A stretch of DNA of 60,039 bases, filler included, from Fonticula-like sp. SCN 57-25 (Eukaryota), in NCBI GenBank assembly GCA_001724245.1. It is 4 parts of 4 records of this genome, joined end to end, with 100 filler letters (N's around TTAATTAATTAA, not from the genome) between each part and the next. Parts side by side here need not be neighbours in the genome. Positions count along the whole stretch, not along the records: positions 1 to 14,537 come from MEDX01000157.1; 3 more parts are not named here. One strand, written 5' to 3'. The notes below the pieces were generated by a model. It worked only from the letters and a program-made list of their open reading frames with translations, was not told the DNA's origin and did not search any database. The first letter of the stretch is position 1; every line of letters begins with the position of its first letter. Positions 1 through 28,038 of this stretch are shown here, in pieces. Made by a program: the position numbers and the translations under genes.

Positions 1-950
1 AATACTCGTCGCGCAGCAGAATCGGATCTTGGGCGGGCGGGCGGAAAGGGTTATGCTCGGCCGACTGGTTGCGCGAGCTGATATCCTTGATGCGGCTGCG
101 GAGGTGGGTGACTTGCGCTCGAACGGTGATTTTTCTTTTCATACTCATTTCCGTTGCGAGTATTTCCTCCATTGCGTTCAGTCGGCGCTCAAGTTTCTTA
201 AGTTGGGCATCGTCGTGCCGGCGGAGGTCCTCAAAACGCTGCTTCTCGACAGCTTTCTCCTGCTCGAGTAGCTCGGTCTCTTTTGTCTTCAGCAAGTGGA
301 TAATCCGCTGCGACGCCCCCTTCTGCAGGTCGGCAAGAGAATATCCGAGTATCTTTGCCACACGCTCTTCAACGCTCAGCTTGGCGTTTGGCTTCTGTCG
401 GTTCGTCGGAAGCAGCTCGGCGATGAGGTTCCGCGCCTTCCTCAGGGTATCCCCGGGGATCAGCGCCTCGACAGGATCGTCCGAGTCGCCAAACCAGTTT
501 CTGAGCTGAATGGCGGCGCGCTTTACAAGCCTGACCGTCACCGCGACGGCGCGCTTAGCCCCTTCTGAAGCCAGGCCTCGGCCCAACTGTTCAAACTGAT
601 CAATCGTAAGCGGTGACTGCGAGTCCTTGCACACATCTTCGGCATCCGCAAAGTCGGCAAGATCAAAGTCGTCCGGAAAGTTGGGGTACGCGCTCTTGAC
701 AAGCTCCGCGAAGGTAAACAAGAGTCGGAGCGCCCTGTCCTCATCTACTCGAGCACTTTAGTTTTCTAAAAAATAGGCGCCCCCTCGTCCAACTCGTACC
801 TTTGTGGTCTGTGCGCAGCTCACGATTATGAAGAAGAGGAAGCATCGTCTCGTAGCTTTCCAATACCTCGAAAATGTCCGCATCGTCGCTGCCGAACAAC
901 TCAACGAGCCGGCGCTCGCTGTTGTCCGGCGCCGTCGAGTCGAACGTCAT
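1..950 (-). CDS. Hypothetical helical/coiled-coil protein, 5' part (runs off window start), head-to-head with the RNF213-like gene
   Basis: ATG at 950 (MTFDSTAPDNSERRLVELF...). Removing intron 799..745 (GTACGA...TAG) gives a frame that stays open to base 1, with a charged coiled-coil stretch (ELLEQEKAVEKQRFEDLRR...LKKLERRLNAMEE). No family recognised. Confidence 0.6.
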
Positions 951-1170
951 GGGCACGGCGGCACACACTCGTCAGTCACTCCGCCCTGGCAGCAGGCAGC
1001 CCTGCTTTGCAAAATGTTTGCAGCCACCTGTTTGAAGTCGAATCTGAGACGACCGACGGCGAATGATGGCTGAATATGGCCGGTTCGTTTCAGTCAACTT
1101 GATACGGTAAGACGAAATGTCACTCGAGGCAGACATTTCACCACGTGGCCGCGAGTGACAGCCTCGAGGG

Positions 1171-4100
1171 ATGGCGAGGTTCCTCGACGGTGTCCGGCGG
1201 CTATTCGGGGTGTCTGGTGGCGACGAGGACGACTACTCTGGCTTCGTGTCGCCGGCCACGTTTTGGAAGCGCAAGCGGTCATCGTCACATTTGAATCTAC
1301 ATGTGGTGCTTGACGCGCGCGATGCGGATGACGCGGAAGCGCTGTTTGGGATCCCTTGGCGCCTCTCGGTGGCAGCAAGCCCGGAGGGCAAGGCGGTGCT
1401 CCCCGACATAGCGACACGCAGCGAGCTTATATTTCACTTGTGTTTTGCACTTCCGCTGGATTCCGACCTTAATTCGTTGCATCTCATATTGGATGGCGTG
1501 ATGTCGTCCCGGATTAGCGTCTCTGCCCTGTCGGCCGGTGAGTGCGCCCTGTCGGCGACACATGTCACGCTTCTGCCCGAGTCTGTCACACCGAGGCCGC
1601 TTTGTGGTGTAATTGATTTACTGTATCGCTCCGCTTTCGAGAACGGCGGGGTTCATATGTGCCAATCGCTCGTGGACGATCAGCCTGCCGTGCGCCCGCT
1701 GGCCTCCGCATTGCTCTCGGGCGCCTCCGACGCCCGCATAGCCGTCTTTGAGCTTCTGCTTTCGTACAACGTGTTTATTGAAACGGACGTATGGCTTTCG
1801 TGTTTTGCGTTGCTTTCATTGGATAAGCTCAGGAGCCCCATCTCCTGGGTGCCATCGCTGGCGCACGCGCGCGCAATCGACCCGGGCAGCGCCCATTTCC
1901 TCGACCGTGCCGAGGCCCTGGCGACTAACAGCCCCAATAGCGCGCGCTTTATTATGGAGGTTATTGCGCCAAGCTCGTCGCTCCTGTCGTTTGCTGATCA
2001 CCGAAGGCTTCTATTGCTGTTTATGGCTACCGCAGGAGGCCTCGATGATCCCCGGTGGGACGAATGGCTGCAAGTACCAGCTGCTCTGAAGGTGTTATTT
2101 AGTCAGAGCGATCAGGCAGCAGAGGTAGCCGATGCCCGTCTTGCTAAGCTGGCCGTCCGCCGGCATGCCTTGGAGCTGCAGAGAGGGGTGGCAGGCGCGC
2201 TCCAGTTGTGTGGGCAATACTTCCGCGCGCTGCGGGTGTACCGCACGGACGAGCGCTTTGAGAAGACGGTGGCTGTTCTTAGACGTGATCATGTAATCGA
2301 ATTAGGCACGCTTGCCAAGGATGATCGCGAGATGGCACTTGTGCTAAGCATGCTTGCTGCGTCGGCACACGCATGGCCGCCCTCTGCCGCCGTCGAGTTT
2401 TGTCGCAAGGTTGTTGAACTCCCGGTTGTGGAGGATACAGTGCTCAAGACGTATTTAAACGCGATTTCTTTTATCTGGGATCAGCAGGCAAGCCTTGAAG
2501 AAGACAAGAAGCTGGTGATGTGCTGGACTGCACCGAGCGCATGCCAAGAGGTACAACTTGCTCTCCGTCGTGAGCTGTCAAACAAGATCCAGAATATTTC
2601 AACGACGAAAGGCGATCGTATGGACCTTCTTTTTGAGCTCGCCATGGCCAAGCAGCACGCTTTGCTTTTTAGCCATGCTGTGTGGGAGTCGCATCGGGTC
2701 GCGGCGTTGCGCCATCTTGCCTCATTGGATATCATTTCCGCACTCGGGCTGGCGAGTTTGTTTGGCGACAGCGATGCGGAGGCCGCGGACGCGTGCTTGA
2801 GCCACCTGGTTACTACTCGGTTATCTTCGACTCCGCTATTTGTGAATGGGCAGCTGGCTTTCCATTGTGTCGAGCATTGGAAGCCTCTTGTCGTTGCCAT
2901 TGTTTCCCGTCGCCGAAAGCCTCAGGTCACCACGCTGGGGCAGCTCCTTGTTGACATTACACACTTCTTTGACGCCATGCTGGCAAACTGCAAGGCGCGT
3001 AAAGTGACGAAACGCGTTGTTCACTTGTGGCTTGATCATTGGGCAGATATTATGCAGCTTGGGGATGCAGTCCGCATCGACCTTACTCAACACCATGCCA
3101 GCGCCAGAGAATGCATGACGTATTTCGATTATGCAGAGCGCGTTTGGGAATGCATTTCCCGGTTTGAGATTGCTTGGCGCTCAACCGCGCAGACGCTGCC
3201 GCCGTTTTCCTACCTCGCCACCTGCAAGGAGAAGTGCCGCTTTGACAGCATGCTGTATGAGGTGGAGAGCGCATTGCCGCCGCGCGATTTTAAAAGCGTT
3301 GCCGACACTCTGCGTCGTTTGACCGCTACGGCTGAGCAGCCGCAGTTTGCTTTTGTGGCGCGGTTGGTCGTGGGTGCAGCAGCTGACTTCAAGGCTACTA
3401 GCGAGGGCGCCATTGCATGGCTCTCCGCTGCCGCCAAATCTATTGGCTTTTGTAGTCAGGCCTACACGCAGCGCACTGTGCTTGTGTCCGACGTTTTGAG
3501 TCTTACTGAAACTTCGGCAAACTTTGAGGAAGATATTGCGGCGTTGTGTATTGCCGCGCAGGTCGCAGCTGGAGACCGTGATGCTGCAGTTCGGTCCTGT
3601 GTGAATGCACTCTCTTGGTATGAGGTGAGGAATCGGCGCAACGAGATCTTTGGTGCGCTGCGCGACGCGTGCGCGCCTAATGTGGAGTCGGACCCAGCGT
3701 GGAGAGTGCTTTTCACTGAGCTTTCCGAGCCGACAACGACTGTGGCGCTTTGCGAGGCGAGCGCGCTCCGTGCGGCGCGGTGTAACCATGCTAGTGAGCT
3801 TACGCCGCCAGCCGTTACTGCATTCCTTCGATGCGTGCCGAATGCTAAGAATGCGATTGAGTGGCTGATGCGGATTCCGGCGACGCAGACATTTGAAAAG
3901 GAGGCGCAGCTGCTTAACTCGCATGAAGACGCGGAGCTGAAGCGCCTGCACCGCCTTCTTATCTCGGTGCAGGTCGCACGCCGATGGCTGCAGCGCCTTG
4001 GCTTTGAGGAGATGCGGAGGCCAACCACGAGTCACCTTGCAGCGATGCTTGCGACTGAGGCGATTGACGAGAGGGCAGCTGAGGCACTGAGTCAAGTTGA

Positions 4101-7100
4101 ACGGTTCCTTCACGAGATCATTGCCGGTCTTGGTGACGTGCGCTGTTGCTACGCACTAGTATGGGGTACTTACTCGCCTCTAGATTTCCAATGGACAAGG
4201 CAAGGCCAGCCTGTTGATTCAGCGCGCTCAACAGCTAGTGAAGGGTGCTACTTTTTCCGTTTCTGCGCAATTGACGGATCGCAAAGTCGTCGTGGAGGCG
4301 TCTGTTCAGTTCCCCGCCCCCGATACGACGTGCTGGCCTCTTGGACAGATTCACATGCAGCTTCTTAAGATGATGATTGCGAGCAACAGGAATGGCCTTG
4401 GCGGCGACAGCAGCGAAGAAGGAAGGGAATTGCAACATGCGATTGACGCTCTTTCGACTGTTATATACATTGCGGACCTGTACAAGGAGCTTGCCAATGG
4501 GCATTGCCTTTGGAATCTTCCCGCGCGCGTCCAGTGGCACGGAGCGGATGCTGCAACGACGAGTATGTGGCAAGAGTATGCAGACTTGCTTCGATCCGAC
4601 GTGACGACTTGGGAGGAGCAGCGCCAATCCATGTTTATCAAACATCGCACACTCAACTACCTATCGCCGCGCAGTATCTTTCTTCTTTCTGATGCCCTTT
4701 CACGAGCCTCGTCCGCCTCTGTCCGCGCCATTTTGCGCACGATTGACTCCGCCTTTGCCGCCTATAATTCGGCCCATTGGAGCGCAGTCCAGGACGAGAT
4801 GCCGCTGGACGAGGAACCGAATGTCACCTCGCTACCGCGGCTTGGGAATGCTTTGGTCAAGCTTGAGCGCGTTGCCTGCTATTTGAACAAATCGTTTGGC
4901 CGCTTGCAGCTTTGCGGCGGACCCACTGCGCAACAGATTTCGCCAGGTGTCCGCGCCATCAGCATTAATGATTGCAACATGTGGCCGAGCGCTGTGCTTA
5001 CCGTATTTGATGACCGCATGCCGCTCTCTGTCCAGATGCTTTATGGCCTTGCAGAGACGACGGACGAGCAAGTTGATCGATTTTTGCGTCTTGTATCCTT
5101 GAACGCTGGCCGGTCGGAGTGTGTTTTCATGATTACCGGTATGGAGAATCTGCGAGGCGACTTGGCGATTCGTGTGGTGACACGGCTCGCCGCGGAGCGG
5201 AGCATGTCTGCCCGCGTGTTCGTTCTCATTTCCCACAGCGGCATGGCCAATGCGGCCAACGAGACCCTGCAGGATCTCGTTCGGCGACTTCCCGTCGCGA
5301 CACTACATCTACACCAGCTCGAAACGATTCGGAAGCGCGTGGTATCCTTTTTGCAGAAGAGCAGCGTGACATTGCAGGTTGTTTGGTCGAAGGAGGCGGG
5401 TGCTGGCAAATCTGTCGCGGCGCGTGCATTTTTAAAGGGTAATGAATCACACGCGGCAACGTTTGCCGTGCATTCTCAGCTCTCAGTGATTGTGACGCAG
5501 CTCAACATTCTCCTGGCGCGCACATCACATGAAACACACAAATCGCAGGAACCTAGGAGGATACTTTTGCACTGGGCGCGTACTGATGAAAGCAACGAGA
5601 AGGCCGCTTGGGACGCGCGTCAGACCGTGCTACTTTTTCAGTACCTCATCAACGGCTTTATCACGGATGACTGTGGTGCAACGGCCCTCCTTCATCCGTA
5701 CTCCTCCACGCGCATTGCGATTGAGCTTATCGAGGTACGATGATTTGCCCGCCACCGTGCAATACTCATTCGTTGTGTCCATAGCCGACGCAGGATATCT
5801 CGGTCAATGGGTTGCTCAATCTGCTGCCTAGTAAGTGCGTTAAGGAAGGGCTCGCAGTGTCCAAAGATGCCACGGAAGAGTATCTACCTGCCCGCGTCTC
5901 GCAGATGCGCTCGTACATGGCGTTCTTGGATCGCACGCTTCCTCAGCTGCCCAGCGAGCAACGGCGCGCCGCGCATGAATCAGCGATGACATGGTTTGTG
6001 GCAAGCGAAGAGCGGCCATCATGGTCCGATGCGTTGCGCCTTCTCCCGCCCATCATGTCCGCCGGTGATTCGCCAAAGCTCGTTGTACCGGACCGGAGCC
6101 ACGCCGCGGCTGCGTACATCGATATTTTACCCGAGAGTTTCGCAGAGGAGCAGCTGTGCGTTCTTTTTGGTGATTTGTGCGTGCAGCGATTGAAAGAGTC
6201 GCAGCCGGCTTTTGCCTTTACGCGTGATATCGTTGCCCGACTTGGGCTACTCTCCACCCTCTACGCCGCGGGTGTTCCCGTCATTATGCGGGGCGAAACC
6301 GGTACTGGAAAGACGTACCTTGTGCGCTGCCTCGGTCTGCTGCTGGACGTGGCTGTCCACGTGCTTGATGTGTTTGATGGTGTTACAGAGTCGGACGTCT
6401 ACGACTTTGTTAACAGATGTGCGCTCGTTTTCTCTATAGTGCGACGCTGCGTATTCACCTTCATTCCACGTTAGGCATTGTGGAGTCCCCAGGGGACCGC
6501 CCGGCGATCGTGTTCTTTGACGAGGTCAACACGTCACATGCTCTTCACGTGATTCGCCAGGTGTGTCTTGACCGCCGCACAAGATTCCCCGCGCGGATTC
6601 CATCCGGGTGGGGCTTTATGGCAGCATGTAATCCTTACCGGGCTCCAGCCGACTGCGCTGCATCGGGGTGGCTGCGTCCGTACGCGGTTCTTAAGGAGCC
6701 TGCCTCCTTTGAGCCGTATATTTGGGGGGTGGAGGGGTTGCGCGGCCCCTCTGAGCGGTACTTTATCAATGTTTTGTGCGCCCAGATGCTTCCGCCAGAC
6801 AAGGTTGCAACGGCCGAGGCCGCAATTGCTGGGGCGCAGGACGTGCTGCGGAGGTGTTCGCCCGCGCTTACGATGAGTTTGCGGGACGTGAAGCGGTGCC
6901 TGTATGTTGCCGCTTGGGTTTTGCGTCAGGTAAAGGGAGACGTGTTTCCATCAAATCCACAAGACGCCCTTGTCCTTTCGCTTGGGCTATGCTACGCGCT
7001 AAAGCTCGAGCGCAGCAAAGATCGCGAGGCGCTCGGGGCTGCGGTCGCCACGTCACTTCAGGTAAGCGACTCGCACCTTGACGCAGTCCTGCTCAAGACG

Positions 7101-10100
7101 TCAAAGGAACTTGTTCGACAACTGGAGCCCTTTGAGCGCGACGTGTCCGCCAACTGGCACTTGCGCGAGAATCTGCTGATATCCTTTGTTTGCATCATGG
7201 CACGTGTCCCTTTGTTTCTTGTCGGAGAGCCGGGCTCGTCCAAGAACCTCGCGTTGTCCCTGCTCATCGACAAGTGTCGCGGCGAAGTGGCACAGAATGC
7301 GTTTTTGAAGCGCTACCCGCGAGTTCAGTCTTTTCCTCTTCAGTGCTCGGCAAGTACAAAAAGCGACGCCATTGGTGATGTGTTTGTGTCGGCGCGCGAG
7401 TTTGAAGATAGCGTAGGCGAAGCGCACGTGCGGTGTGTTGTCGTGTTGGATGAGGTTGCTCTGGCCTCTGCCGAGGCTCTGCCCGTGCTGCATACACATT
7501 TACGTCCGCCTGCTGACGAGCTTGACGATATCGCGGGTGGCATGGCGTTTGTCGGCATAGCACATCAAGTCCTCGATCTCTCCAAGATGAACCGCGGGCT
7601 GGTCCGCATCGCCATGAGTGAGCGCACGCTGTTTGAGGACTTTGTCCATATCACCTTGCCTACGGACGCGCTTGAGGCCTCTGAGACTAGAGCTCTTGTG
7701 GATGGCTTCCACTCCCTCCTTGTTGATTCCAACGTGCTCGGACGTTTTTACGGGCTTCGCGACTTTTACGCTGCCGTGAACATTCTGTCGCGGCTGTTGC
7801 GTCACGGCCCGGCGACCCTTGCAGCCAAGCAAGCTGCTTTATTGCGAGTTGTACAGCGCTGCTTCAACGGCCGTGCTGGCGATAGCGATACTGTCATGAG
7901 TCATTTGTTTGGCCTGCTTGAGTGGTCGCTACCGGCGCAGATAGCTGACGCAACGCGTGTTCCCGTTCGTGACCTGCTTCTCGAATGTCTCGCGGAGCCG
8001 ATGGGGCGCCACCTTCTTGTGTCCACTCGACAGCTTTCGGCGATGCACGATTTGATGCGCGATGGCACGATTCGACTACCCGACGGGACGCAGCGGCCGG
8101 CCGAGTTTCTCTCGGGTCCTGTTTTGCCCGGTGGAAACGCGGCAGCTATCTTTCAGGACGCGCTGCTTCGCGTGAAAGAGTGCATGTCATTTGGGCGGAT
8201 TCTTTTTCTCTACGCTGTACCATACCTGCACGAGACACTGTACGACGTTCTCAATCGGCGGGACGTGGTCATTGACGCTGGGCGCTACGCGCGTCTGGCC
8301 GTCGGCCCGCACAGCGACCTTTGCTATGTTCACAAGAACTTCCGCATCGTCCTGCTAGTTGAACCGGACGAGGCTGCGCTCCTTGAACCGCCGCTGCTCA
8401 ACCGTTTTGAGAAGCACGTGCATGTACATTCGCTCGGCAGTAATCAGCTTTTTGATTGGGCACATGCCGTTGCAGGCAACAGCAAGGCCGCTCTTCGCGA
8501 TATGATTGTTGCGAGCGACACCTCGCGCCTGATTAATAGCTTGGCACAGACTGGCCGCCCCCTTTCCGAACTGAAACTCGCACTTGGCCGTTTGGTTCGC
8601 CCGGCCGTTGCATTGGCTCTCGACGCGTGCAAGCCAGGGTTAGGTGGTCCGCTCCGTGCCGTTCTCGATGATGTGATCAATGCCCAAGGTGTTCAGCTTG
8701 CTGCGTTCATCGAGGCGGCGGCCGAGCTGCCTAAAGATCGTACACCGGCTCAGTCGCTGACGCTGACTCGATTTCTTCGCTTGGCCGACAATGCGCCCGT
8801 TGGCAATCGCTGGATCATTATGGCCAACCCGACGATGGCGCAGTATGGGGGACGCCAGACATCTGTAATCACCGTGCAACCGGACATGACGCACGCCGCG
8901 TTTGTCAAGCAGCTTGATGCCTTCATGTCTGACAGTGCAAAGCGACTACTAGTCGTGACGCTGTACATAGGCAGCACAGTCTTTTTTTCGATGGCTGGTG
9001 TTGCGCGGCTAGCGCTCGTCTGCGACAGCACCCAGCAAACATGCCATGTTTCAGAGGGGCTCAAGAGCGTCGCTCTCGTAGCGGTGGTCTCGGGAGCCGC
9101 GTGGCGCACGGTGCAGCCCGAGCCTGTGCCTGGATGGGCGCTTGTGTTTGCCGACACTCCCGACGGGATGCCAGCGCCCATGACGGACTTCTTCGAGCAT
9201 CGTGACATAGTGCCGCGCCGCTCGTTGCTTAGCCTGATTCGTTCTCCTGATGAGGCGTATAACAAGGCGACGACGGAGCGCGCGTTGACACTGGCTGTCT
9301 CGCACGTGCACTTTGAGGGGACGCACAGTGTTTCGCCCGAGGCTCTCATGCGAGTAGTACAGCTGCTGCGGAGCGAAGTAGGTGCGCTTCTCGATGCATC
9401 CGAGAATGATGCGACAGACTGGGTGAGCATGCTGTGGACGGAAAATAAGCCGCTCGTATACTTGTCTTTGGCGTCTCTTCTTCAAACGCGCATCGAGTCG
9501 CACATTGCCAAGGTTCTTCAAAAGTATCTAGTGGTGTTTTTGAGCCACATGCAGGCGCTACCGGCGACGGAGCACCGCCTGGCGCCAATATTTGCAGCTC
9601 TTGGGCCAATCGCAATGCTTCCAGATATCACGCAGCAAAAGGTGGTCGCTGATTTTGAGTGCAGTTACCCGATGGCCAAATTTACTTGGGAGGCCATCAG
9701 CAAGGTGGACCGGGAATTGGCCGCCAGTCAACAGTGCGCGTTTAATGGGAGGGGTTCTGGATTGCCTCTAACTATCTTGCACAGCATCACGAGATCGACC
9801 TTGGAGAGTGATTTGATGCTACGCAGCGACATCTTGGTTGCAACTATCAAAGAGCATAACTATGTTGATCTCTATCAGCGCGACTTTGCACGGCTGGAAG
9901 ATGCCACCAAGGATTTTCCGAGTGGTTTAGCCTCTTGCTTGCTGCGCTCGCTCTCCGCTACAGGTATATTCCTCGTGTTCCATCGCGCCGTTGCTCATGT
10001 ATCGCGCGACAGATATTATAGATCTACACCTCAAGTTCGCCGCTTTGCGCCCGCGCTTGCTAGAGTTGCGATCCATCGTCAACAGCGTAGCTGAATGGCG

Positions 10101-13100
10101 CGAAGCGTGCGCCGGGCTTGCTTTGCGGGAGGCCGTTGTTTCTATCGACACTTTTGTAGAGCAGGTACGCCATATCTTGCCAGTACCGAGGTGTTTTTCC
10201 TTATCCCTATACCCGCAGATTTTGAGAGTTTGCCTTGATGTGACCCAGCCTCGAAGGCTGGACAGCCTTGACGCCGCGCGTCAGTGGTCTGCCGCTTACC
10301 TGCGTCCGCTCGTCAGCGTGCGCGCGCTGCTCCATGCAGACGGCGGCGAGCTTGGCCAACGTATCACGAACCTTCAGTTCTCTGCTTTCCTTATAGCGAC
10401 CGTCGCGGTTCCGTATCCGGACGTTTGGGAATCGGCAAAGCTACTCCTGTGCGCAATTGACGAATCTGTGGGGCAGGCTACTGTATATTGCGAAGAGATT
10501 GTTCGCGCGTGCCCTTCTGCGACCGCGCTTATCCTTGATTGGGCATTCACTTTGGAGAATGAGATCGCCGACCCGGTGCGCCGCAACAAACCATAAATTT
10601 TATCTTAACAAACTAAATGACTTTTGTAGATCCTCGACTTGTTCGATATTCCCCCGTATGCGCGACTTCGAAATTTCACATATCGCTTGCGCGATGTCGA
10701 AAGCTGTCCTAGCGACCTTCCAATCAACTGCACCCCAAACAAGATGACTGTCCTTGATGACGATACGGCTGTAGTGCAAGTCTTCATGCTCAAGTGGATG
10801 CACCTGAGTAGCGATGAACTAGAGAAGCAAGTCGAGCGCGCGGGCGACTCCCTCCTTTATATTGCGGCCGCGCAACTGCTCATAAAACGCATCATGGCTG
10901 CGCAAGCCAAAACGCTGGACAAGGCATCTTGCAGGCAACTGGCTAATTTGCTACCCGACTCGGCGCCGCACGTCGAGGCGCTTCGGCGGCAGTGTATGCG
11001 GGATATAATCGAACACGCCCGCGGGCTAGAGCAAGCGATGGCTGCCATTCGGCAGCAGCACGTAGGCAAAATGCTTCCTTGGCTTTTTGTCTTTGCGCAG
11101 CAACTTCATTCTCTCGAGCAGGGCTCGGCCGTTCGACTGTACGACAACGCGGACACTGTGCTCCACACAGCGTTCTCCGAATGCGCACGAAATGATCATG
11201 CGAGAAGTGATGAAGTTGAGAGAACGCTGGGCGGCCCCTTGCGCGCATGCATGCTTCTGCAGCTACACAGCATGGTACGCAGATCGAACTTCAAATGTAG
11301 TGATGTGCGCGACTCACAACTTGATCCAGAGCCTCAGTGGAAAGGACGTGTGGTGGATGGCCCCGTCGGTGACACAGCTACCCAGTATCGTCGCGGCAAG
11401 CTCTGAGCCAGATGATGTGAAGCTGGCAATCCTGGCAGGCCACTGCTATGTGGCTTTCGTCGGCGGGACTGGTCTGCTATCCCAGCTTCTAAGTAGCCCT
11501 GGCCAGCTGCGCAATACCCCTTTGCCTGGCATGCCCGAGAATATCATTTCTGTGGCCGAGCGACTCATGGGGCAGATGGGCGGTACCAGACTGTACATGT
11601 GTGCCAACTGCAACGAGCCTTTTATGATTGGTAATTGCGGCATGGCAATGCAGGAAGGAAGGTGCACGCGATGTAACGGTCCAATCGGAGGCGCCCAACA
11701 TGTACTCGTACGTGTTCCCCTATCTGGCAGCTACCTATTGCTTACAGCTTGGACTTCAATAGCGTCACGGGCGCGAGTTTAATCGCGCATCCGCAGAGCC
11801 CTTCCTTGGCTATGTCGAGGTTCGCGGCGACGACGTCCTGGTCCGAAACATGACGCGACAAACGGGCCATTTGTTGCAGGCCCTGCTCACGCTTGCCCTG
11901 AACACCGCCTCGCTTTTGAAAACCGGCGCGTCGGATATCGTGCGGGACCGCTCTCCGGTTGACTTTGCCGCCGCGTGCAAGAATCACATTGGCCAGCTGG
12001 CGAGGTACGCATCTATCAAATTTCTTGGTAAACGGACCCTGACGCGCCCGATGTTGCCGACAGGGTATGGGGCGTTGACGATGCGCGCGTGTACGACGCC
12101 CTGCACGTTCTTTTGTGGAGGCCTCAGGCGCTGCATTTACATCGCTTGGCCGAGGGCTGCAGCGAGCAGGATCGCGACAACTGGGAAGCTGCGTTTACGC
12201 AAAGCGCACAGCGTTGGCTTGAGGGCCGCGTACACACCGTTGCGGATGCGATGGCGCGGTGCAATGATAATGCGACCAAAGCGGGCTTGCTTAAGAGCGA
12301 GATTACTTGCCAGGTCCCCTCCTCCGTGATGACAACCGACTATATGGTGACAAAGCTGCCGCACCTTTTTTTACCGCTGCCGTCCGACCCGTCCGAGGCG
12401 TTCCTGCGTCAGCTCAATCAAACGCAGCGCCTCCAAGACTCCCATCCGTTTCTCCACGCCCTCTTTGTCGGCCGTGGTAACATAGTGTTTGATGCGGAGC
12501 AGGCGGACGCGCTGTGGGACGTGATGCGCGTTCTGCAAGGGCTTGCCGACGCACAGCCCATTATTGGCAGCGAGTTTACTATGGCAGACGCGCAGACAAT
12601 TACGATTCAAGACGCGCTGGAGCGCTCGCCGGCACTGTATGCCGCCATCGGGCACTTGCTCGCGCCGATGGAGCATCTGTGGCGCGTCATGAGCCTCGAT
12701 GGCCGTGCGGAGTGCCAGGCCGTGCAGCTCAACGATCTTCCTCCGACGGTGCGCTCCATACCCGCGGTCTCGCTTGTGCTAATCCCGCGCGCAGAGCCCG
12801 CTGGTCCGCATTGTTCACAGCGTGTCTGAGCCCACCGAGATCTCCGTCCTCATGGACACGGCGTGCCGCGCCAACAACGCGATTCTCTCGGCCGCGCGCC
12901 GGTCTATTGGCGGCAATGAGCTTCTTCCGGCCGACGACGACGAAGAAATGCACGTGACCGAGCCGGGCGCTTCCTTTGTTGGTCCCCCAGATGGGCGCGC
13001 TTCGCGCTCGAGGTACTTGAACGACTTGCTAAGCCAAGTGATGAGTCCTTTGAGATTTGTCGGGGACGATGGCGTACCGCAGTCCGTGCCCGTGAACCTT

Positions 13101-13947
13101 GGCCAGCTCTGGGACCTCGATTACGTCCAGACCGTACGCTCTCGTCGTTTTGTATGAGGCTTGCTTAGCAGATTGGTAGCGGTTGGTGCATACGCTTTGC
13201 GTAGGCCGGCGGCGGCTCAGGTTTGATAGCACCCACTTTGCTTGTGCCGTCTTTGACGGCCCGGGTACGTTTGCTTCGATTGGCACGTATACGCCGCAGC
13301 TGTCGCTTTCTCGTACGCGCGCCTCTCGTGGTCGCGCGCAGCTAACTCCGGTCTGTGTTTTAGCTACGGCCATCCGCGCGTTTGCCGAGTTTTCATCTCA
13401 AGCGCGCCACGATTCAGAGCGTCTGCTTCAGGCGGCCGAGCAATTCCTCACGCTCGGCAATCAAATTGCCCGCCTCCTGCGTGTGGATGCGTCCGCTGCT
13501 AGTCTCTTTGACGTACAGCGTATGGGCGACGAGCGGCTAGCTCAGCTTTGCGTCGACGCTGGCCTCACCGCAGAGCATGTTTGCAGCGCCCGCCGTTTTC
13601 TTTTGCGCGGTGTCCAGAGCGCCGTAACGCTCGGGCTGCCGTTTGCGGAGGAGCTCCCGCCAAGGGAACGCGGACGGCTTGCGGCTCTTTTGGATGAAGC
13701 AACGGACGAGGACATTCTTATCGTCCTGGACACTGTGGAAGAGTTCATGCACGATGCAAAAGTGAGCAACGCGGAGGACCCGCTCGTGACACCGTGTATT
13801 GTGTACAGACAGCCGTTCTGCAACTATGAGGATAATGAGGAGCGTTTCGCAAACCTCGTGGAGGGCCTCGCTTCGGTACAAGTCAAGCACACGAACCATT
13901 TTGCCCGCATGCTTTTGGATGCGTTGTGCAAGCATCATAAAATGTAA
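1171..13947 (+). CDS. RNF213: RNF213/mysterin-like giant AAA+ ATPase E3 ubiquitin ligase (~4,000 aa, ~13 short introns) with RZ finger
   Basis: The ORF pieces join through GT-AG introns, e.g. 4138-4183, 5735-5784, 6419-6474, 9964-10012, 10576-10629, 11275-11329, 11708-11762, 12005-12063, 12749-12794. RNF213 signature motifs occur in order: SKEAGAGKS, PVIMRGETGTGKT, IVFFDEVNT, PLFLVGEPGSSK, VVLDEV, YGLRDFY, LYDVLN, PLLNRFEKH, then the RZ finger YMCANCNEPFMIGNCGMAMQEGRCTRCNGPIGGAQH. Confidence 0.88.
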
Positions 13948-14133
13948 GTCGTACTGTAGCATTACCAATTGTAAGTCATACCATTGTAAATATTTCGAGC
14001 TACTAATGCACACGATAATCACAGAAATTAATCATGATGTTGATCCGTAACTTATCCTCGCATGTGGCATATATTATGTTTAGTACCGTACTGTATGGGC
14101 AAGTGTTAATATGACTTTACATGTGCGACATCA

Positions 14134-14302
14134 AATCACGTGATCATATGAGTGAATCCGGGTTTTTTGCACTTTTTTAGTTGTACTGTAAGGTTTGAAT
14201 AATGTACTGTATGTTTCCAGTTCTCGCAGGAATTAGTGACACCGAATCACGTGATCGTATAAGAGAAACCGTTTTTTTTTACAATTTTTTAGTTATACTG
14301 TA
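14134..14302. repeat. Degenerate direct repeat (period 111 bp) containing TCACGTGA, within a TACTGTA/TACAGTA-rich tract
   Basis: aatcacgtgatc...ccg..ttttt...ttttttagtt.tactgta occurs at ~14134 and ~14245. Confidence 0.6.
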
Positions 14303-14537
14303 CTCTAAAGCTTATAGTACACTACTGCAATTATGTACTGTTCTGTATGATACAGTACTGTATTGTACCAATTCTCACATACTGTACTGTAACTGTAAGG
14401 ATGACACCCCTTACCTATTCACTCTTCTCTATTGGAACACTATCCTGCTTTCCCGCCAATAGTCTTTGTATCCTTTCCTCAGATAAGGCCTCTCTCCTGA
14501 TTGGTCCTCTACACATTCTATTCCCATATTAGGCAAT

Positions 14538-14637
14538 NNNNNNNNNNNNNNNNNNNNNNNNNNNNNNNNNNNNNNNNNNNNTTAATTAATTAANNNNNNN
14601 NNNNNNNNNNNNNNNNNNNNNNNNNNNNNNNNNNNNN
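14538..14637. other. Assembly gap with artificial stop-in-all-frames linker
   Basis: N run + TTAATTAATTAA + N run, 100 bp total. Confidence 0.97.
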
Positions 14638-15668
<1,031 letters not shown>

Positions 15669-15947
15669 TGACGTCATGGTGATGACGTAGGTGGTGACGT
15701 CAGAGAAAAGTATTTTTTAGATTTGGTTTTGGAAGAGAGGGGGTGCGCGTGGATGAAGGTGGAATGCATGTGTATTATATATGCATGTTATATAAAATGC
15801 GTTGTTGTTTCACTTTGTTCTTTCTCTTTGTCGCTGGTTTTTAATGTCTGCGTGCGGGCCCGGAAGGTTTTTGTAATGTGTGGGATCGCATCTATTGTGC
15901 AACAATACAGGATCGTGCTGATAAACATTGAAGAGGGGTGGGTGGAA

Positions 15948-16046
15948 TGATAGATAGAACGAAAGATAGATAGACTGATAGAACGAAAGATAGATAGAAC
16001 GAAAGATAGATAGAACGAAAGATAGATAGATAGAACGAAAGATAGA
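15948..16046. repeat. Tandem repeat of ~16-nt unit GATAGATAGAACGAAA
   Basis: Repeated gatagatagaacgaaa units between convergent gene ends. Confidence 0.85.
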
Positions 16047-21000: not shown

Positions 21001-21130
21001 TCGCAAAAGTGAGGGAATAAGAGTGTAAATAAAAATAGCCAAAAGTAAATTGTCGATGAGGGAAAATGGGGAATTGTGATTGGTTGAGAGGCGTTTTGCG
21101 CAGTCATCACGCGCCAAATTTTGGTGGCGG

Positions 21131-23385
21131 ATGGCGACGATTGACCTCACTAGCGAGGAGGACCGCGTGGAACCCTTAATAGACTCGCATTTCAGCGATG
21201 ATGAAGGAGAGCGGTCCGGCGCGGTAGAGCTAGAAGAGGAGGATTATGATTTGTTGGATCGCGGGACGGCATCGAGTGTGGGTGCGCGACTGGAGCATGT
21301 TCGCGCCATGGCCGAGCGGCTTGATCGGCGCCGCGCTGCTCTTGAGCGTCTCTTTTCGCGGCTTGTTCGCGACGAGGAGAAGCGCACGGCGTCTGCGGCT
21401 GGCGCGCTTGCTTCTTCCAAGGACTGGGGCAACATGTCCTTTCCGTGGGATGCCGATGCCCAATCTGTATTGGAGGAGCGATTCGGCCTGTCAACGTTCC
21501 GCTCTTCTCAGCGCGCCGCCATCAACGCTCTTCTTTCCGGCGAGAATGTCTTTGTGGTAATGCCGACGGGCGGCGGAAAAAGTCTTTGCTACCAGCTTCC
21601 CGCGCTCGTCCGCCCGGGATTTGTCCTCGTGGTGTCGCCGCTGATCGCGCTCATTGATGATCAGGTGTCTATCCTTGCGGATCTCGGGATCCCCGCCGTG
21701 CACTATGGCTCGCACCTAACGCGAAAGGACCGCTCAGCGCTGCTCGCGCGGCTGCGAAGCGCCGACGGCGGGATAAAGGCGCTCTTTGCGACGCCCGAAA
21801 TGATCGTCGTCAACACGACGCTCCTGACGACCGTCGAAAAGTGCCACGCGGACGGGCTCGTGAGCGCGTTCGCTATCGACGAGGCGCACTGCTGCTCCCA
21901 ATGGGGACACGACTACAGACCGCACTACAAGGACCTCGGCATTTTAAAGGTATGCGGGTGTGTTTATTTTGTTATTCATGGTTTCCTTGACCCATTTTCG
22001 CACTTTTCCATTCGATTTTCTCACTGTTGCCACTTTCAGCGCCAAATGCCGCGCGTACCTCTGATTGCGCTCACCGCCACTGCCTCTGGCCGCGTCCGCG
22101 AAGACGTAAAATCTATCCTCCGCATCGAGCACTGCGTCGGCCTCTACTCCTCCCCCCTTCGCACCAACCTCGCGTACTGCGTCGAGCCCAAGCCGACGTC
22201 CGCTTCCGCCACCGCCGCGCGCATTGCCGCCGTCGCCGCCTCGCACGGCCCCGCCGCCTGCGGCATCGTCTACTGCTTCTCCCGCTCCGACGTCGAATCC
22301 ACCACGGCAGCACTCTTTGATCTCGGCGTCCGAGTGGTCGCCTACCACGCAGGCATGGCCCAGGCCGACCGGGAAGCCGCCCACGTGGCTTGGCTTCGTG
22401 GCACGTCTCGCGTGATCGTGGCCACGTCGGCGTTTGGACTCGGCGTGAATAAGCATGATGTGCGGTTTATCGTGCACGCGTCGCTGTGCCAGAGTGCAGA
22501 GCGGTACTATCAGGAGAGTGGGCGGGCGGGAAGGGACGGGAAGAGGGCAGAGTGCGTGCTGCTGTATAGGCCAATGGAGGTGTTTAGGCTGTCGACGGCG
22601 GTGTTGGCGGAGCAGACGGGGTTGGCAAAGTTGTACGCAAACGTTAAGTACTGCAACGACCTAAAGTACGTTGATGTTAGTTGGGTTTTGTGGGAATTGC
22701 GGTGGAAACCGAGTTTTTTTGGTTACAATTTTGGTTATTTTATGTCGATTTTGGTTATTTTGTGTCGATTTTTTGTCAAATTTTTGTTAAATTTGTGTCA
22801 AATGTGTCGATTTTCCCCCGCTTTCCCCTCATTCTCATCAATCAATTTCTTCACAGGACGTGCCGCTCGACGTCGCTTGTGCGCTTTCTTGGCGACGCTT
22901 CCGCCGCCGCCCCCTGCGGCCTCTGCGACAACTGCACACGTGACATGCCCGCGCCCGAAACAGACGTGACGTCATCAGCCGCCGCCCTCGTGCGCTTTGT
23001 GGCGCAGCTCGAGTCGACCGGCGACGCGCCGCCGCCCGCCGAGCTCGTGGCCACGTGGCGCGCCGGCCGCGCACGCAAGCGCAAGAAGAGAAAGGACGAG
23101 GATATAGAAGAGGAGCCCACGTGGCCATTGGCGGAAGTTGAGCGTCCGCCGTATAGCCGCGAGGACTGCGAGGCTATCCTGGTTCGGCTCGTGGCGGACG
23201 ACTATTTAAGGGAAAAGTTTACGCATAATGCATATGCGACGAATACGTATATTGTAGCGGGAAGGAGAGCGGAGGAGCTGCTGCGGGGAGAGGCGGTTAT
23301 TAGTATTGCGCTTGTCGGAAAAGTTGGCGAGGAGAAAAGGGCAAAGAAGAAAAAAAAGGGCGATCAGTCGGAAGACGACGACTGA
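21131..23385 (+). CDS. RECQL: RecQ family DNA helicase (RECQL/RecQ1-like)
   Basis: Motifs MPTGGGKSLCYQLPA, IDEAHCCSQWGHDYRP, ALTATA, YHAGM, QESGRAGRDG, a Zn-binding CR...CGLCDNC and a winged helix with F.HNAYATNTY. Introns ~21950-22039 and ~22666-22856. Confidence 0.92.
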
Positions 23386-25436: not shown

Positions 25437-27797
25437 CTAGCATTCACACGACATGAGCGCCTCTGCAATGTCCGACCCGCCGCAGCAATCTGTGCCGTCG
25501 CAGTCCGTCTCGATGCACACGCACCCCACCGCCCCCCCACACGCGCCATCAATGCCATCAATGCCACCCAAAATGCTGCCCGACATGTCGCCAAAGCAGA
25601 GCGCCGTCGTCGCTATGACAACGATGCTGCCAATGACAATCCCGCCAATGGCGACCGCCGTGCCCGCCGCGCCGCGTTCCTTTTCCGCCTGCTGCTTGGC
25701 CTCGTCGGTCGTCTCGTACGCGACCATGCACGTGAACGGGCTCGCAATCGACTCGCGCACCGACAGGTCGACCGCCTGGCGACGCCACTCGGCGCCGCCG
25801 GTGAGCCACGCCTGCGTGCTCAGGTGGTCGAGACGCTGCTTGGCAAACACGCGGTCGATCGGGATCGCGTCGGCGGGGCGCGAAAGTACGCGCGACTCGA
25901 ACGATTCGCGGCGCGCGTCCCGGCCCATGAGGAGAATGTGTGGCGGGAAAGTGCCGCTGAACTGGCCAGAGAGGACGAGAGGGTGGCCAAAAAAGAGGTC
26001 GGGGATTGGATAGGGGTTGAAGGATACACTGCGGGCTTGGCGGCTGATGCCAACGCGCACGTCGGTGAGGAGGGGGAGCTGGCTCAGCGATAAAAGACGC
26101 GACATTTGAGAATAGATTGTCGACGCGTCAAAGGCAACGTCGAAAAAGCCGCGGCCAATCGTGCTCAAAAGCTAAGAAAGAGTTAGTAAAAACTGCATTG
26201 GCAATAGGAAACAAAGCCACAAACAGAGGGCAAAAAAAAAAATAACATGGTACGAAAAATACCGGCCACAAGGGCCTCATACACAGAGGCAACCAAATAC
26301 TAAACACACGCAAACTGCAAACCGGCGTACCTTTAAAAAGACTTGGTTACACGCCGCGCCGATGCCAAACGTGTTGATTCGAATGTTTGTGCGCAGCGTT
26401 GTCGCCCACACGCAAATGTCGCGCTCGTTGAGGACGGCGCCGTCGGTGACGAGAAAGATGAATGGGAGCGCCGCCGGCGACGTAATTGAGGCCGCCGTGA
26501 GCATTCGGACGGCGGCCCTCAGCGGCGAAAATATGTCTGTAAGCCCGTCTGGCGTGACCATGTCGATCCACGCGCGCGCCTCTGCTATCGACGCGTCGGT
26601 GACCGGGACGAGCTCTGACTTGAAGTAGAATTGGAATTCGTTGAATGCAATAATGTTGAAGAGGTCGCCCGGCGCGAGCGCGTCGACGCCCTGGCGGATG
26701 GCCTGGAGCGCCGCGGCGGCGACCGGGCCGCCCATCGAGCCGGAGCGGTCCACTACAAAGACGACGCTCCGGTTAAAGGTCGGCAGCATCGACTCTGGCG
26801 GCGTCACGATCACGCAAAAGGAGCCGCGCGGATCGGTAGTCTTGTCGTCGCACAGCACGGGCTCCTCGACAAGAAGCGTCGACGTGATCTCTTCGTTCCA
26901 GATCGTGTACGAAAGAGAAAAGTCGCCGTTGGGCCAGGCGACAGTCGGAAGTGATCGCGAGCGGATCCGCGTAGGGCTCTGCTCGATGCACTCGAGCGAG
27001 TGGCTTGCGTGGCCCCAGCGAGCCGGGATGCCGCCAGTGTCAACAGAAACATTCACATTGACGATGCCGGCGAGATCAGATGCGTCGCCGATCATTGACG
27101 GGTCAAAGGTCAGCGGCAGCGACAAAACATACGCGCCCTCATCGCAGTGGAGGCGCTCAAAGTAGGTAATCGAAAACGTCACCTCATCGCCAGAGGCGAG
27201 ATCGCCAAAGGGGAGAACAAAGGCAGAGGTGGCGCTCACGGGTGGAGCAACAAAATTCTGTAATTCATTGCCGGCGACATCGACCAGCGTATTGTGCTCG
27301 GCTAACCGGCGCGCCTCCTTGATTGGCACAACGGCCGTCTCCACCAGGCGCTTATTAAACCGCACCTGGCAGCCGGTCACGGTCGCGCCCGGCTTGAGCG
27401 GCACGTGCACGGCGCAGCGGCCCTCCCGGCCGCTCATATTAACAAACGTGCCGCGCAGCTCGACAAAGCTTGCAACGATGCAAACTTGCACCGAGGCATC
27501 GAGCCGGCGGAGCGAGAGCGGCCACGAGTAGCCGTCCGAAGTCCGGAAAAGAAATACATGGGGGCAGTTGTTGGAGGGAGAAGAGACAGAGGAAGGCGCT
27601 ATCCCTCCCGATACCGAGCTCTTTAGCGGGATCATTGCTGGGCCGCTTGGCCGCCGAGGCCGCCACAGGTCCTCGATTGTCTGATTGTCCGGAATCGGGA
27701 CTCGCCCACGTGTACAGGGCTGTGTCAATGCTGTAGGATCGTATGCGCGGTCGCGGCCTGCTTGGCGATGCTGCGCGCCGAGGTGGACGGGGGGCAA
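25437..27797 (-). CDS. VIT + von Willebrand A domain protein (ITIH/VWA5A-like) with C-terminal hydrophobic helix and Cys-rich tail; start uncertain
   Basis: MIDAS motif VFVVDRSGSM, FNIIAFN, IFLVTDGAV, INTFGIG, then PIPDLFFGHPLVLSG. Intron ~26330-26172. The tail ends ...CCGGSDIAEALMSCEC*. Confidence 0.85.
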
Positions 27798-28038
27798 GGG
27801 CCAAAGTACACAAAATTAAACATAAATAGACCGAAAATAAAAGAAAGGAGGCAATGTAACTCATTACATACATTAATTTCGTTGTCGTATGCCGATCAGC
27901 TATGCACAAAGGGGGCGCCGCTATCGGCGGGGACCGGGCCGCCACGCAAATAGAGGTGGGGAAAAGGCGGCCCGTGAAACAAACATGAAAATAAACGCCT
28001 AAATAAACGCCTAAATAATATACTTGACCGGCGGATGT

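What the first reader, a model, noticed from the sequence alone, without database searches (positions are those of the whole stretch)
1171..13947. RING-less RNF213/mysterin with RZ finger in a protist-like genome: candidate ancient cell-autonomous antibacterial ubiquitylation system
Seen: a full-length ~4,000-aa RNF213 architecture with the AAA+ core and an RZ finger, but no C3HC4 RING that I can recognise in the E3 region. Established: mammalian RNF213 ubiquitylates bacterial LPS through the RZ finger, independently of its RING. Inference: this organism may use an RZ-only form against intracellular bacteria, with the RING being a later addition.
Basis: partly seen in the sequence, partly recalled or inferred. 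Interest (0 to 1): 0.75.

Follow-up and report, generated by a model that had tools for sequence, protein, structure and literature searches.

The report
RING-less RNF213-like giant ATPase gene
This is a real gene of an uncultured microbial eukaryote for a very divergent relative of the giant immune ubiquitin ligase RNF213 that keeps the ATPase core and the catalytic RZ zinc finger but has no RING, which turns out to be the usual state of this protein family outside animals.

Summary
On the + strand, 1171-13947, eleven exons joined by ten 46-59 nt GT-AG introns give a 4086-aa protein. Splicing is inferred; no RNA run was listed. Its AAA3-AAA4 core matches solved RNF213 structures (E 3e-49). 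Pfam finds an RZ finger (E 1e-12) with the catalytic Cys/His dyad at the mouse spacing. There is no RING or U-box: the protein has only two CxxC motifs, both in the RZ finger.

This is not unusual. Of 28 Pfam-scanned homologues outside the animal clade, 26 have an RZ finger but no RING or U-box. Named examples include Naegleria gruberi, Andalucia godoyi, Cymbomonas and Gigaspora. Two homologues, one in a cluster that includes an Ectocarpus protein, carry a U-box at the RING site. "RING added later" is therefore unsettled.

This copy has three oddities. It is at most 37% identical to anything in 1.8 billion representatives. Its AAA4 Walker A ends in Asn rather than the Ser/Thr seen at every AAA4 motif match in 258 homologues. 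Family profiles do not detect its E2-docking C-terminal domain, although they detect 21 of 23 non-animal tails.

An antibacterial role is untested, and the neighbouring genes are housekeeping. Verdict: new member of a known kind, modest interest.

The parts
1171..13947 (+). Whole gene model: 11 exons (1171-4137, 4184-5734, 5785-6418, 6475-9963, 10013-10575, 10630-11274, 11330-11707, 11763-12004, 12064-12748, 12795-13133, 13180-13947), giving 4086 aa
   Evidence: ORF map. Introns chosen and joined with no internal stop. No indels in DNA contigs of 4 other runs across 1000-14078. No RNA evidence.
4138..4183 (+). Intron 1 (46 nt). It stands for the ten proposed introns: 4138-4183, 5735-5784, 6419-6474, 9964-10012 (or -10021), 10576-10629, 11275-11329, 11708-11762 (or 11702-), 12005-12063, 12749-12794, 13134-13179. 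All have a GT[AG][CT] donor, a CTNAY-like branch site and a YAG acceptor
   Evidence: Possible further in-frame introns at 9734-9784, 10165-10218 and 13313-13363. 9734-9784 appears as an insertion relative to the family profile.
4538..5835 (+). Region before AAA3 (aa 1108-1523), homologous to the family's segment upstream of AAA3 (expected AAA1-AAA2)
   Evidence: Profile HMMs of homologues: i-E 4.5e-18 (all) and 7.9e-21 (non-animal)
6292..6524 (+). AAA3 nucleotide site: Walker A GETGTGKT (6292-6315, Lys1682) and Walker B AIVFFDE (6504-6524, Glu1734), split by intron 3
   Evidence: Aligned to the human Walker B Glu2488 region in 9jwg_A.
7224..7454 (+). AAA4 nucleotide site: Walker A GEPGSSKN (7224-7247, Lys1974, Asn1975 in place of Ser/Thr) and Walker B VVVLDE (7437-7454)
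   Evidence: In 258 homologues the pattern ended in S 249 times and T 9 times; the 8 other matches lay in unrelated sequence contexts (judged from their flanks); none ended in N.
9351..11055 (+). Post-AAA4 / E3-back-like region (aa 2677-3210). It includes the place where relatives carry a RING or U-box, roughly the exon 5/6 junction. No such domain is present here
   Evidence: Non-animal profile i-E 5.6e-6 with shared motifs. Weaker with the RZ removed: 6.3 bits against a best shuffle of 2.0. RING columns mapped.
11576..11710 (+). RZ finger. Proposed Zn ligands are C3374, C3377, C3395 and C3398; the nucleophile is Cys3386 (11636-11638); the general base is His3407 (11699-11701)
   Evidence: Pfam PF20173 E 1e-12. 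Alignment to RNF213 chains, with chain position 4483 of 7oik_A matching His3407. Residue roles from PMC12075652 section 11. Coordinates checked.
12161..12466 (+). Conserved post-RZ segment of the E3 module (within aa ~3432-3650)
   Evidence: Profile without RZ: 27.6 bits against <= -0.3 in 200 shuffles. Six-frame hit in this frame, i-E 5.7e-5. BLASTP to P0019 over model aa 3372-3715, E 1e-11.
12795..13947 (+). C-terminal ~370 aa (exons 10-11; family profiles leave roughly the last 430 aa, from about aa 3650, unmatched), where the family has its E2-docking CTD. Not recognisable here
   Evidence: CTD profiles score 0.7-2.3 bits, at shuffle level. No CTD-like coding in any of six frames of the window. 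AlphaFold2 single-sequence model was unusable, pLDDT 37.

Best explanation
The locus is one intron-bearing gene of an uncultured microbial eukaryote. It encodes a ~4086-aa, very divergent member of the pan-eukaryotic RNF213-like family: a dynein-type AAA+ core followed by an E3 module with an RZ finger.

Shown: homology of the AAA3-AAA4 core, of the segment before it, of the RZ finger and of ~220 aa after it; absence of any RING or U-box; conservation of both Walker A lysines, both Walker B Asp-Glu pairs, and the RZ Cys/His dyad at the mouse spacing of 21 residues.

Inferred by analogy with mouse and human RNF213: ATP binding to AAA3/AAA4 switches on a transthiolating E3, in which an E2~ubiquitin hands ubiquitin to Cys3386 and His3407 helps transfer it to a substrate. 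How the E2 docks is open, because the family's C-terminal docking domain is not recognisable. The substrate and biological role (bacteria, lipid droplets or other) are unknown.
For: - Core: PDB phmmer matched 9 of 9 sequences as RNF213, best E 3.4e-49. 712 long homologues scored E <= 1e-3, as did 1870 representatives.
- RZ finger: Pfam E 1e-12. The alignment places Cys3386 and His3407 on mouse Cys4462 and His4483 (roles from PMC12075652 section 11).
- Zinc site: a C4-type site without the His also occurs in the family. 8 of the 61 RZ fingers that matched my anchor pattern (of 133 detected) have CxC and no His.
- ATP sites: Walker motifs. ATP binding at AAA3 and AAA4 is necessary and sufficient for E3 activity in mouse (PMC12075652 passages).
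- No RING. A delta-RING mouse protein is active (PMC7311170 passages).
- One gene: profile hits are collinear along the model. BLASTP to P0019 runs across the exon 7-8-9 joins. The tail after the RZ finger is 679 aa, against 640-770 in most full-length homologues. GC is even at 0.55-0.59 across the locus and drops to 0.46 after the stop. No indels appear in contigs of 4 other runs.
Against: - No RNA evidence for any splice junction. Three further in-frame introns are possible.
- The AAA4 Walker A ends in Asn at the position the family fills with Ser/Thr. No N occurs among 266 pattern matches in 258 homologues.
- The His zinc ligand, whose mutation abolishes mouse activity, is missing. Replacement by Cys3377 is inferred.
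- The CTD, which binds UBE2L3 in mouse, is not detected. The same profiles detect 21 of 23 non-animal tails and 33 of 33 animal tails.
- The first ~1100 aa match nothing.
- Of the 37 listed differences that lie in the gene (of 126 differences counted in the other runs), 24 change the amino acid and 13 do not. This is only a weak sign of constraint.
- The tree branch is very long, and its pairing with P0131 may be an artefact.
Confidence: 0.6

Rival explanations
1. One reading: an RZ-only RNF213 that ubiquitylates LPS or other surface molecules of intracellular bacteria. This would be an ancient cell-autonomous antibacterial system in a phagotrophic protist.
For: The RZ dyad is intact. Mammalian lipid A activity depends on the RZ Cys and not on the RING. 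The DNA occurs in bioreactor, wastewater, aquatic and manure metagenomes rich in bacteria (X2, X4, X5 and X6 laid).
Against: Nothing in the window links the gene to infection. The neighbours are a RecQ-type helicase, SET, RCC1, Mei2-like RRM and VIT/VWA genes. The family also occurs in a green alga, a brown-alga cluster and arbuscular fungi, so it is not tied to phagotrophy. The CTD is unrecognisable and AAA4 is atypical in this copy.
Confidence: 0.1
2. A degenerate or repurposed family member. It would be an ATPase scaffold that no longer works as an RNF213-type E3, or that uses another partner, because the E2-docking domain and parts of the active sites have drifted.
For: CTD undetected, against 21 of 23 and 33 of 33 controls. 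Asn in the AAA4 Walker A is unique among 258 homologues. The His ligand is lost. The branch is very long and the amino-acid composition deviates. Among the listed variants 24 are non-synonymous and 13 synonymous.
Against: A 12.3-kb reading frame is kept open across 11 exons. The nucleophile Cys, the base His, three Cys ligands, both Walker A Lys and both Walker B Asp-Glu pairs are kept. Two other non-animal homologues also escape the CTD profile (P0202, P0147), so a missed CTD may reflect divergence rather than loss.
Confidence: 0.2
3. Gene-model artefact: two or more neighbouring genes wrongly joined (for example an AAA protein and an RZ protein), or a RING/U-box exon missed.
For: No transcript data. 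Splice sites were chosen by rule. The region between AAA4 and the RZ finger is only weakly similar to the family.
Against: Every gap between ORF pieces is bridged by one 46-59 nt intron of the same type. The order and spacing of the pre-AAA3, core, E3-back-like, RZ and post-RZ hits match the family. No CxxC cluster occurs in any + frame and no U-box hit in any ORF piece. There is no AT-rich spacer inside the locus.
Confidence: 0.07

Closest known systems
Mouse/human RNF213 (mysterin); PDB 6TAX, 7OIK, 8S24, 9JWG
   Same: AAA3-AAA4 core (E 3e-49, about 27-30% identity). Walker A Lys and Walker B Asp-Glu in both units. RZ finger with the Cys/His dyad 21 residues apart. A comparable tail length after the RZ finger.
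   Different: No RING. About 1100 aa shorter than human. The segment between AAA4 and the RZ finger is ~970 aa, against 1150-1350 in most animal homologues. The zinc site is CxxC...CxxC rather than CxxxH...CxxC. AAA4 Walker A ends in Asn. The CTD and the N-terminal stalk are not recognisable.
RING-less 'RZ-type domain-containing' giants of protists and fungi: Naegleria gruberi XP_002675949.1/D2VJ31 (P0167), Andalucia godoyi ANDGO_08381 (P0163), Cymbomonas tetramitiformis KAK3289270.1 (P0242), Gigaspora margarita (P0021), Racocetra persica (P0056)
   Same: AAA core plus RZ finger, with no RING or U-box by Pfam. They lie on the same, non-animal side of the strongly supported split. Some, including Racocetra P0056, have a His-less C4 zinc site in the RZ finger.
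   Different: Only 27-37% identical in the core. Their CTDs are detected by the animal profile (Naegleria 2e-5, Andalucia 1.4e-7, Cymbomonas 2.5e-9, Racocetra 3.9e-12) while this one is not. None has Asn in the AAA4 Walker A.
U-box-bearing relatives P0135 and P0138 (the P0138 cluster holds an Ectocarpus fasciculatus protein, CAM9257784.1)
   Same: Same family and the same side of the tree.
   Different: They carry a Pfam U-box (E 6e-14 and 3e-8) about 510-550 aa before the RZ finger, where animals have the RING. The window's protein has nothing there.
ZNFX1
   Same: Shares the RZ finger with a catalytic Cys and a conserved His (bioRxiv 10.1101/2025.09.05.674436 passages).
   Different: That preprint describes ZNFX1 as an SF1 RNA helicase with its own RING-like E2-binding module. 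The window's protein has a dynein-type AAA core and no helicase hit.

Membership tests
RNF213 / mysterin family | Dynein-type AAA core with two nucleotide-competent units (AAA3, AAA4) | tested here: met
   E 3.4e-49 to RNF213 chains over both units. Walker A Lys1682 and Lys1974, and Walker B Asp-Glu in both. Deviation: AAA4 Walker A ends in Asn, which none of the 266 pattern matches in 258 homologues shows.
RNF213 / mysterin family | Six AAA units in one chain | tested here: inconclusive
   Profile hit upstream of AAA3 at aa 1108-1523 (i-E 1e-18 to 1e-21). Only weak collinear hits downstream. No usable structure model.
RNF213 / mysterin family | RZ finger with catalytic Cys and general-base His | tested here: met
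   PF20173 E 1e-12. Cys3386 and His3407 align with mouse Cys4462 and His4483, 21 residues apart.
RNF213 / mysterin family | RZ zinc site Cys-His-Cys-Cys (mouse C4451, H4455, C4471, C4474) | tested here: inconclusive
   Three Cys are kept. The His column holds Glu, and Cys3377 lies two residues earlier, giving CxxC. 8 of 61 pattern-matched family RZ fingers also lack the His and have CxC. Metal binding was not tested.
RNF213 / mysterin family | E3 module scaffold (E3-back, shell, core) around the RZ finger | tested here: inconclusive
   aa 2677-3210 i-E 5.6e-6. The post-RZ ~220 aa score 27.6 bits, against <= -0.3 in 200 shuffles. With the RZ removed, the pre-RZ part is borderline: 6.3 against 2.0 bits.
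RNF213 / mysterin family | RING inserted in the E3-back (mouse 3940-3999) | tested here: not met
   No Pfam RING or U-box. Two CxxC in the whole protein, both in the RZ finger. No cluster in any + frame. The RING is also absent from 28 of 28 scanned non-animal homologues, so it does not define the wider family.
RNF213 / mysterin family | C-terminal E2-docking domain (mouse CTD 4930-5148) | tested here: not met
   CTD profiles give 0.7-2.3 bits, at shuffle level. The same profiles find 21 of 23 non-animal and 33 of 33 animal tails. Nothing in six frames of the window. Tested by sequence only; the fold was not testable.
RNF213 / mysterin family | ATP-gated transthiolating E3 activity | not testable with these tools
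   Needs biochemistry.
ZNFX1-type RZ proteins | SF1 helicase core plus NFX1-type zinc fingers before the RZ finger | tested here: not met
   No helicase or NFX1 zinc-finger family in 11 ORF pieces. Only two CxxC motifs.
Canonical RING / U-box E3 ligases | Cross-brace C3HC4-type RING or U-box fold that binds an E2 | tested here: not met

The most novel reading that the evidence does not exclude
The RZ-plus-AAA machine is an ancient, pan-eukaryotic, ATP-gated ubiquitin ligase whose default form has no RING. A RING in animals and a U-box in a brown-alga-related lineage were slotted into the same site of the E3-back. This very divergent copy has also replaced the usual E2-docking domain. It therefore loads its RZ cysteine from an E2 in a way not yet described, possibly to mark non-protein targets such as bacterial surfaces in a bacterivorous protist.
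Probability: 0.1. Interest if true: 0.7.

Novelty: new member of a known kind. Interest (0 to 1): 0.3.

Why it matters
RNF213 is studied almost only in vertebrates, as the Moyamoya disease factor and as a ligase that tags bacterial lipid A.

This locus, and the database survey it prompted, show that the AAA-core-plus-RZ design is spread across eukaryotes: Discoba, green and brown algal lineages, fungi and animals. Outside animals it normally lacks the RING that gives the protein its name. This fits the biochemical finding that the RING is dispensable, and points to culturable organisms such as Naegleria for testing the ancestral function.

The single gene in this window adds little beyond that. 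It is one more member, very divergent, with an atypical ATP site and no recognisable E2-docking domain. Those features would matter only if it proves to be active.

Tried and rejected
- RNA evidence: no RNA holder listed among 18 runs, so splicing could not be checked.
- Whole genome: none held.
- Close relatives to validate the gene model: none. The best non-self representative is 29% identical by E-value, and at most 37% among the 150 listed.
- Single-sequence phmmer of six segments (N-terminal, post-AAA4, E3 and C-terminal pieces) against 120 homologues gave 0 hits. Profiles were needed.
- A global hmmalign of the E3 region forced one large deletion and was not used for residue mapping.
- AlphaFold2 on the last exon without an alignment gave pLDDT 37.4 and pTM 0.24, which is unusable. 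No fold search was made.
- ESM Atlas on the same exon: best feature score 0.84 and TM <= 0.33, so no lead.
- Taxon from the neighbouring helicase: it is RecQ-like and the hit list is dominated by plants at 40-46% identity, so it is uninformative.
- Codon-position and GC3 tests for hidden introns were not decisive.
- Variants in other runs: 13 synonymous against 24 non-synonymous among the 37 listed in the gene (of 126 counted), too few and selected to conclude anything.
- One literature search with loose terms returned unrelated papers.
- Rejected readings: ZNFX1-like (no helicase), and a hidden RING in an intron (introns are 46-59 nt).
Full report
**What is at the locus.** The window is eukaryotic DNA of about 57% GC. 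The region 1-14000 has an even GC of 0.55-0.59, and GC falls to 0.46 just after 14000. On the + strand, eleven long stop-free pieces follow one another in changing frames from 1159 to 13947. Each change of frame can be bridged by one short intron of a single type: a GT[AG][CT] donor, a CTNAY-like branch site and a YAG acceptor, 46-59 nt long. Joining them gives 12261 nt, or 4086 codons, with no internal stop. The ATG is at 1171, twelve bases after an in-frame stop, and the stop codon ends at 13947.

No RNA run holds the sequence, so the splicing is not shown. Three further in-frame introns are possible, at 9734-9784, 10165-10218 and 13313-13363. The first appears as an insertion relative to the family profile. 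Removing them would take away at most 52 residues and cannot create a domain.

DNA contigs from four other public runs, from four studies, cover parts of the gene. They show no insertion or deletion between 1000 and 14078, so the frame changes are not errors of a single assembly.

**Family.**
- The 1226-aa ORF at 6414-10094 matches only RNF213 chains in the PDB: 9 of 9 matched sequences, best E 3.4e-49. The match covers the Walker B of AAA3 and all of AAA4.
- In the large protein collection, 712 long proteins score E <= 1e-3, the best at 9e-57 and 26-30% identity. They are named RNF213 in vertebrates.
- An exhaustive HMMER pass over 1.84 billion representatives gives 1870 relatives at E <= 1e-3. 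Apart from the window's own ORF, none is closer than 27-37% identity, and every match ends near the end of AAA4.
- Pfam finds the RZ-type zinc finger at 11576-11710 (E 1e-12, 47.9 bits, cut-off 27).

**Active-site residues.**
- The offset between chain 9jwg_A and human numbering is 366. On that basis the first Walker pair, GETGTGKT and AIVFFDE, is AAA3, and the second, GEPGSSKN and VVVLDE, is AAA4.
- Both Walker A lysines and both Walker B Asp-Glu pairs are kept.
- The AAA4 Walker A ends in Asn. In 258 homologues the same pattern ended in Ser 249 times and Thr 9 times. The 8 other matches lay in unrelated sequence contexts (judged from their flanks), and none ended in Asn.
- In the RZ finger, Cys3386 and His3407 align with mouse Cys4462 and His4483 and are 21 residues apart, as in mouse. 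According to PMC12075652 (section 11 read) these are the nucleophile and the general base. In the same paper Cys4451, His4455, Cys4471 and Cys4474 bind the metal.
- Here three of those Cys are kept. The His column holds Glu, and a Cys lies two residues earlier, so the site reads CxxC...CxxC.
- Of 133 family RZ fingers, 61 matched my anchor pattern. Of those, 52 have CxxxH and 8 have CxC without the His, among them Racocetra P0056 and the model's tree neighbour P0131. A His-less C4 site is thus a natural variant. Metal binding here remains inferred.

**No RING and no U-box.** None of the 11 ORF pieces, which cover every exon and overlap most of the exon junctions, gives a RING or U-box hit. The best RING model has E 0.87 and 9.9 bits against a cut-off of 27. 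The spliced protein contains only two CxxC motifs, both in the RZ finger, and no C3HC4-like pattern. In all three + frames of 1001-14100 there are 18 CxxC motifs and no RING-like cluster outside the RZ finger. One pair at 8672/8690 sits in a ~20-codon stretch between stops. Introns of 46-59 nt cannot hide a domain.

**How much of the RNF213 architecture is there.** Single-sequence searches see only the core (120 of 120 homologues) and the RZ finger (62 of 120). The six other segments gave nothing. I then built profiles from 54 homologues.
- The segment before AAA3 is found at aa 1108-1523, with i-E 4.5e-18 (all sequences) and 7.9e-21 (non-animal set).
- The post-AAA4/E3-back region is found weakly but collinearly at aa 2677-3210 (i-E 5.6e-6), with shared short motifs. 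With the RZ removed it scores 6.3 bits, against 2.0 for the best of 200 shuffles.
- About 220 aa after the RZ finger score 27.6 bits, against at most -0.3 in 200 shuffles. BLASTP to P0019 supports this over model aa 3372-3715 (E 1e-11), a stretch that crosses two proposed splice joins.
- The tail after the RZ finger is 679 aa, against 640-770 in most full-length homologues.
- The last ~450 aa score 0.7-2.3 bits against three CTD profiles, no better than shuffles.
- The first ~1100 aa match nothing.

The negative result for the CTD is calibrated. The animal CTD profile finds 21 of 23 non-animal tails, including Naegleria, Andalucia and Cymbomonas. The non-animal profile finds 33 of 33 animal tails. 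No CTD-like coding exists in any of the six frames of the 60-kb window. In mouse the CTD is the UBE2L3 docking site (PMC12075652 passages). A single-sequence AlphaFold2 model of the last exon was unusable, with pLDDT 37, and the ESM Atlas gave no lead.

**Is a RING-less form unusual? No.**
- Among 258 fetched homologues, 133 have both the core and an RZ finger. Of these, 83 have a strict C3HC4 pattern between the two and 50 do not.
- I built a FastTree of 130 core sequences and an IQ-TREE (quick search) of 45. In both, a branch with 100% support separates an animal side from the rest. The animal side holds all 83 regex RINGs, plus RING-less rows, several of which have cores identical to RING-bearing isoforms. 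The other side holds the remaining rows (29 plus the model in FastTree, 28 plus the model in IQ-TREE). The window's protein lies on the non-animal side, on a very long branch paired with P0131. That pairing may be long-branch attraction.
- I scanned 28 of the 29 non-animal rows with Pfam; P0171 exceeds the size limit. All 28 have the RZ finger, none has a RING, 2 have a U-box, and 26 have neither.
- Named members of the non-animal side are Naegleria gruberi XP_002675949.1, Andalucia godoyi ANDGO_08381, Cymbomonas tetramitiformis KAK3289270.1, Gigaspora margarita and Racocetra persica. There are also EukProt transcriptome entries.

RING-less protist homologues are therefore already public, though unnamed as RNF213. 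In the held literature I found no paper describing them. The orthologue alignment of PMC7311170 lists vertebrates only. Supplements were not opened.

**Was the RING added later?**
- In the alignment of the E3 region, all 20 regex-positive sequences place the RING in the same columns. Most non-animal sequences have a gap or a few unrelated residues there.
- P0135 and P0138 have a Pfam U-box there (E 6e-14 and 3e-8). The P0138 cluster contains an Ectocarpus fasciculatus protein. The U-box lies 507 and 547 residues before the RZ finger, the same distance as the mouse RING (3940 to 4451). Their sister P0199 has a Cys-rich RING-like stretch that Pfam does not call.
- An E2-binding cross-brace domain at this site is therefore not confined to animals. 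With an unrooted tree I cannot tell two insertions from one origin with many losses.

**Function.** What can be said is by analogy. In mouse and human, ATP binding at AAA3 and AAA4 is necessary and sufficient to activate the ligase. Ubiquitin passes from UBE2L3, docked on the CTD, to the RZ Cys, and deleting the RZ domain or mutating that Cys abolishes autoubiquitylation and lipid A modification. The RING is dispensable.

The window's protein keeps the residues for ATP binding and for the Cys/His step. An ATP-gated transthiolating ligase is thus the most likely mechanism, which I put at about 0.5-0.6. The Asn in AAA4, the missing His ligand and the unrecognisable CTD leave real room for altered or lost activity.

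Nothing supports an antibacterial role in particular. The neighbours are a RecQ-type helicase, a SET-domain protein, an RCC1-repeat protein, a Mei2-like RRM protein, a VIT/VWA protein and an aldehyde dehydrogenase fragment. The family also occurs in algae and in arbuscular mycorrhizal fungi.

**Organism.** The DNA recurs in bioreactor, wastewater, aquatic, 'fungus' and manure metagenomes. Earlier notes of this scan call the genome an amoeba-like relative of fungi. I did not test that, and my one attempt with the helicase was uninformative.

**Verdict.** The family assignment is right. The novelty claim is not: RING-less is the norm outside animals. The evolutionary and antibacterial inferences remain open. 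This is a new, unusually divergent member of a known kind.

Noticed in passing
homologues P0135 (aa 1876-1938) and P0138 (aa 1701-1760); not in the window: Two non-animal RNF213-like proteins carry a Pfam U-box exactly where animal RNF213 has its RING. The P0138 cluster includes an Ectocarpus fasciculatus protein. I found no description of this in the papers searched.
   Followed up: partly
window 7245-7247: The AAA4 Walker A ends in Asn (GEPGSSKN). Among 258 homologues the same pattern ends in Ser (249) or Thr (9), never Asn. I could not confirm from the listed rows whether other metagenome runs share this codon.
   Followed up: partly
window 4138-13179 (ten introns): Introns are very uniform and short (46-59 nt), with GTGCGC/GTACG-type donors and a CTNAY-like branch site 10-25 nt before the acceptor. 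This is a useful signature for gene modelling in this genome.
   Followed up: partly
window 21080-22969 (+): A RecQ-family DNA helicase gene (DEAD and Helicase_C domains). The best database hits are RecQ1/RecQ-like 2 proteins at 40-46% identity.
   Followed up: partly
window 47219-48679 (+): An ORF with a strong RRM_2 (Mei2-type) domain, E 2.7e-42.
   Followed up: no
window 26277-27815 (-): An ORF combining VIT and von Willebrand type A domains.
   Followed up: no
window 14000-16000: AT-richer intergenic stretch (GC 0.46) right after the gene. It has a 5-nt length difference at 14359 in one other run, and contigs of several runs break near 14386-14394, which suggests a repeat or a variable region.
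   Followed up: no
homologue P0123 (aa 35-110); not in the window: A EukProt transcriptome member of the family has an N-terminal starch-binding CBM_20 domain. The N-terminal arms of this family therefore carry lineage-specific modules.
   Followed up: no
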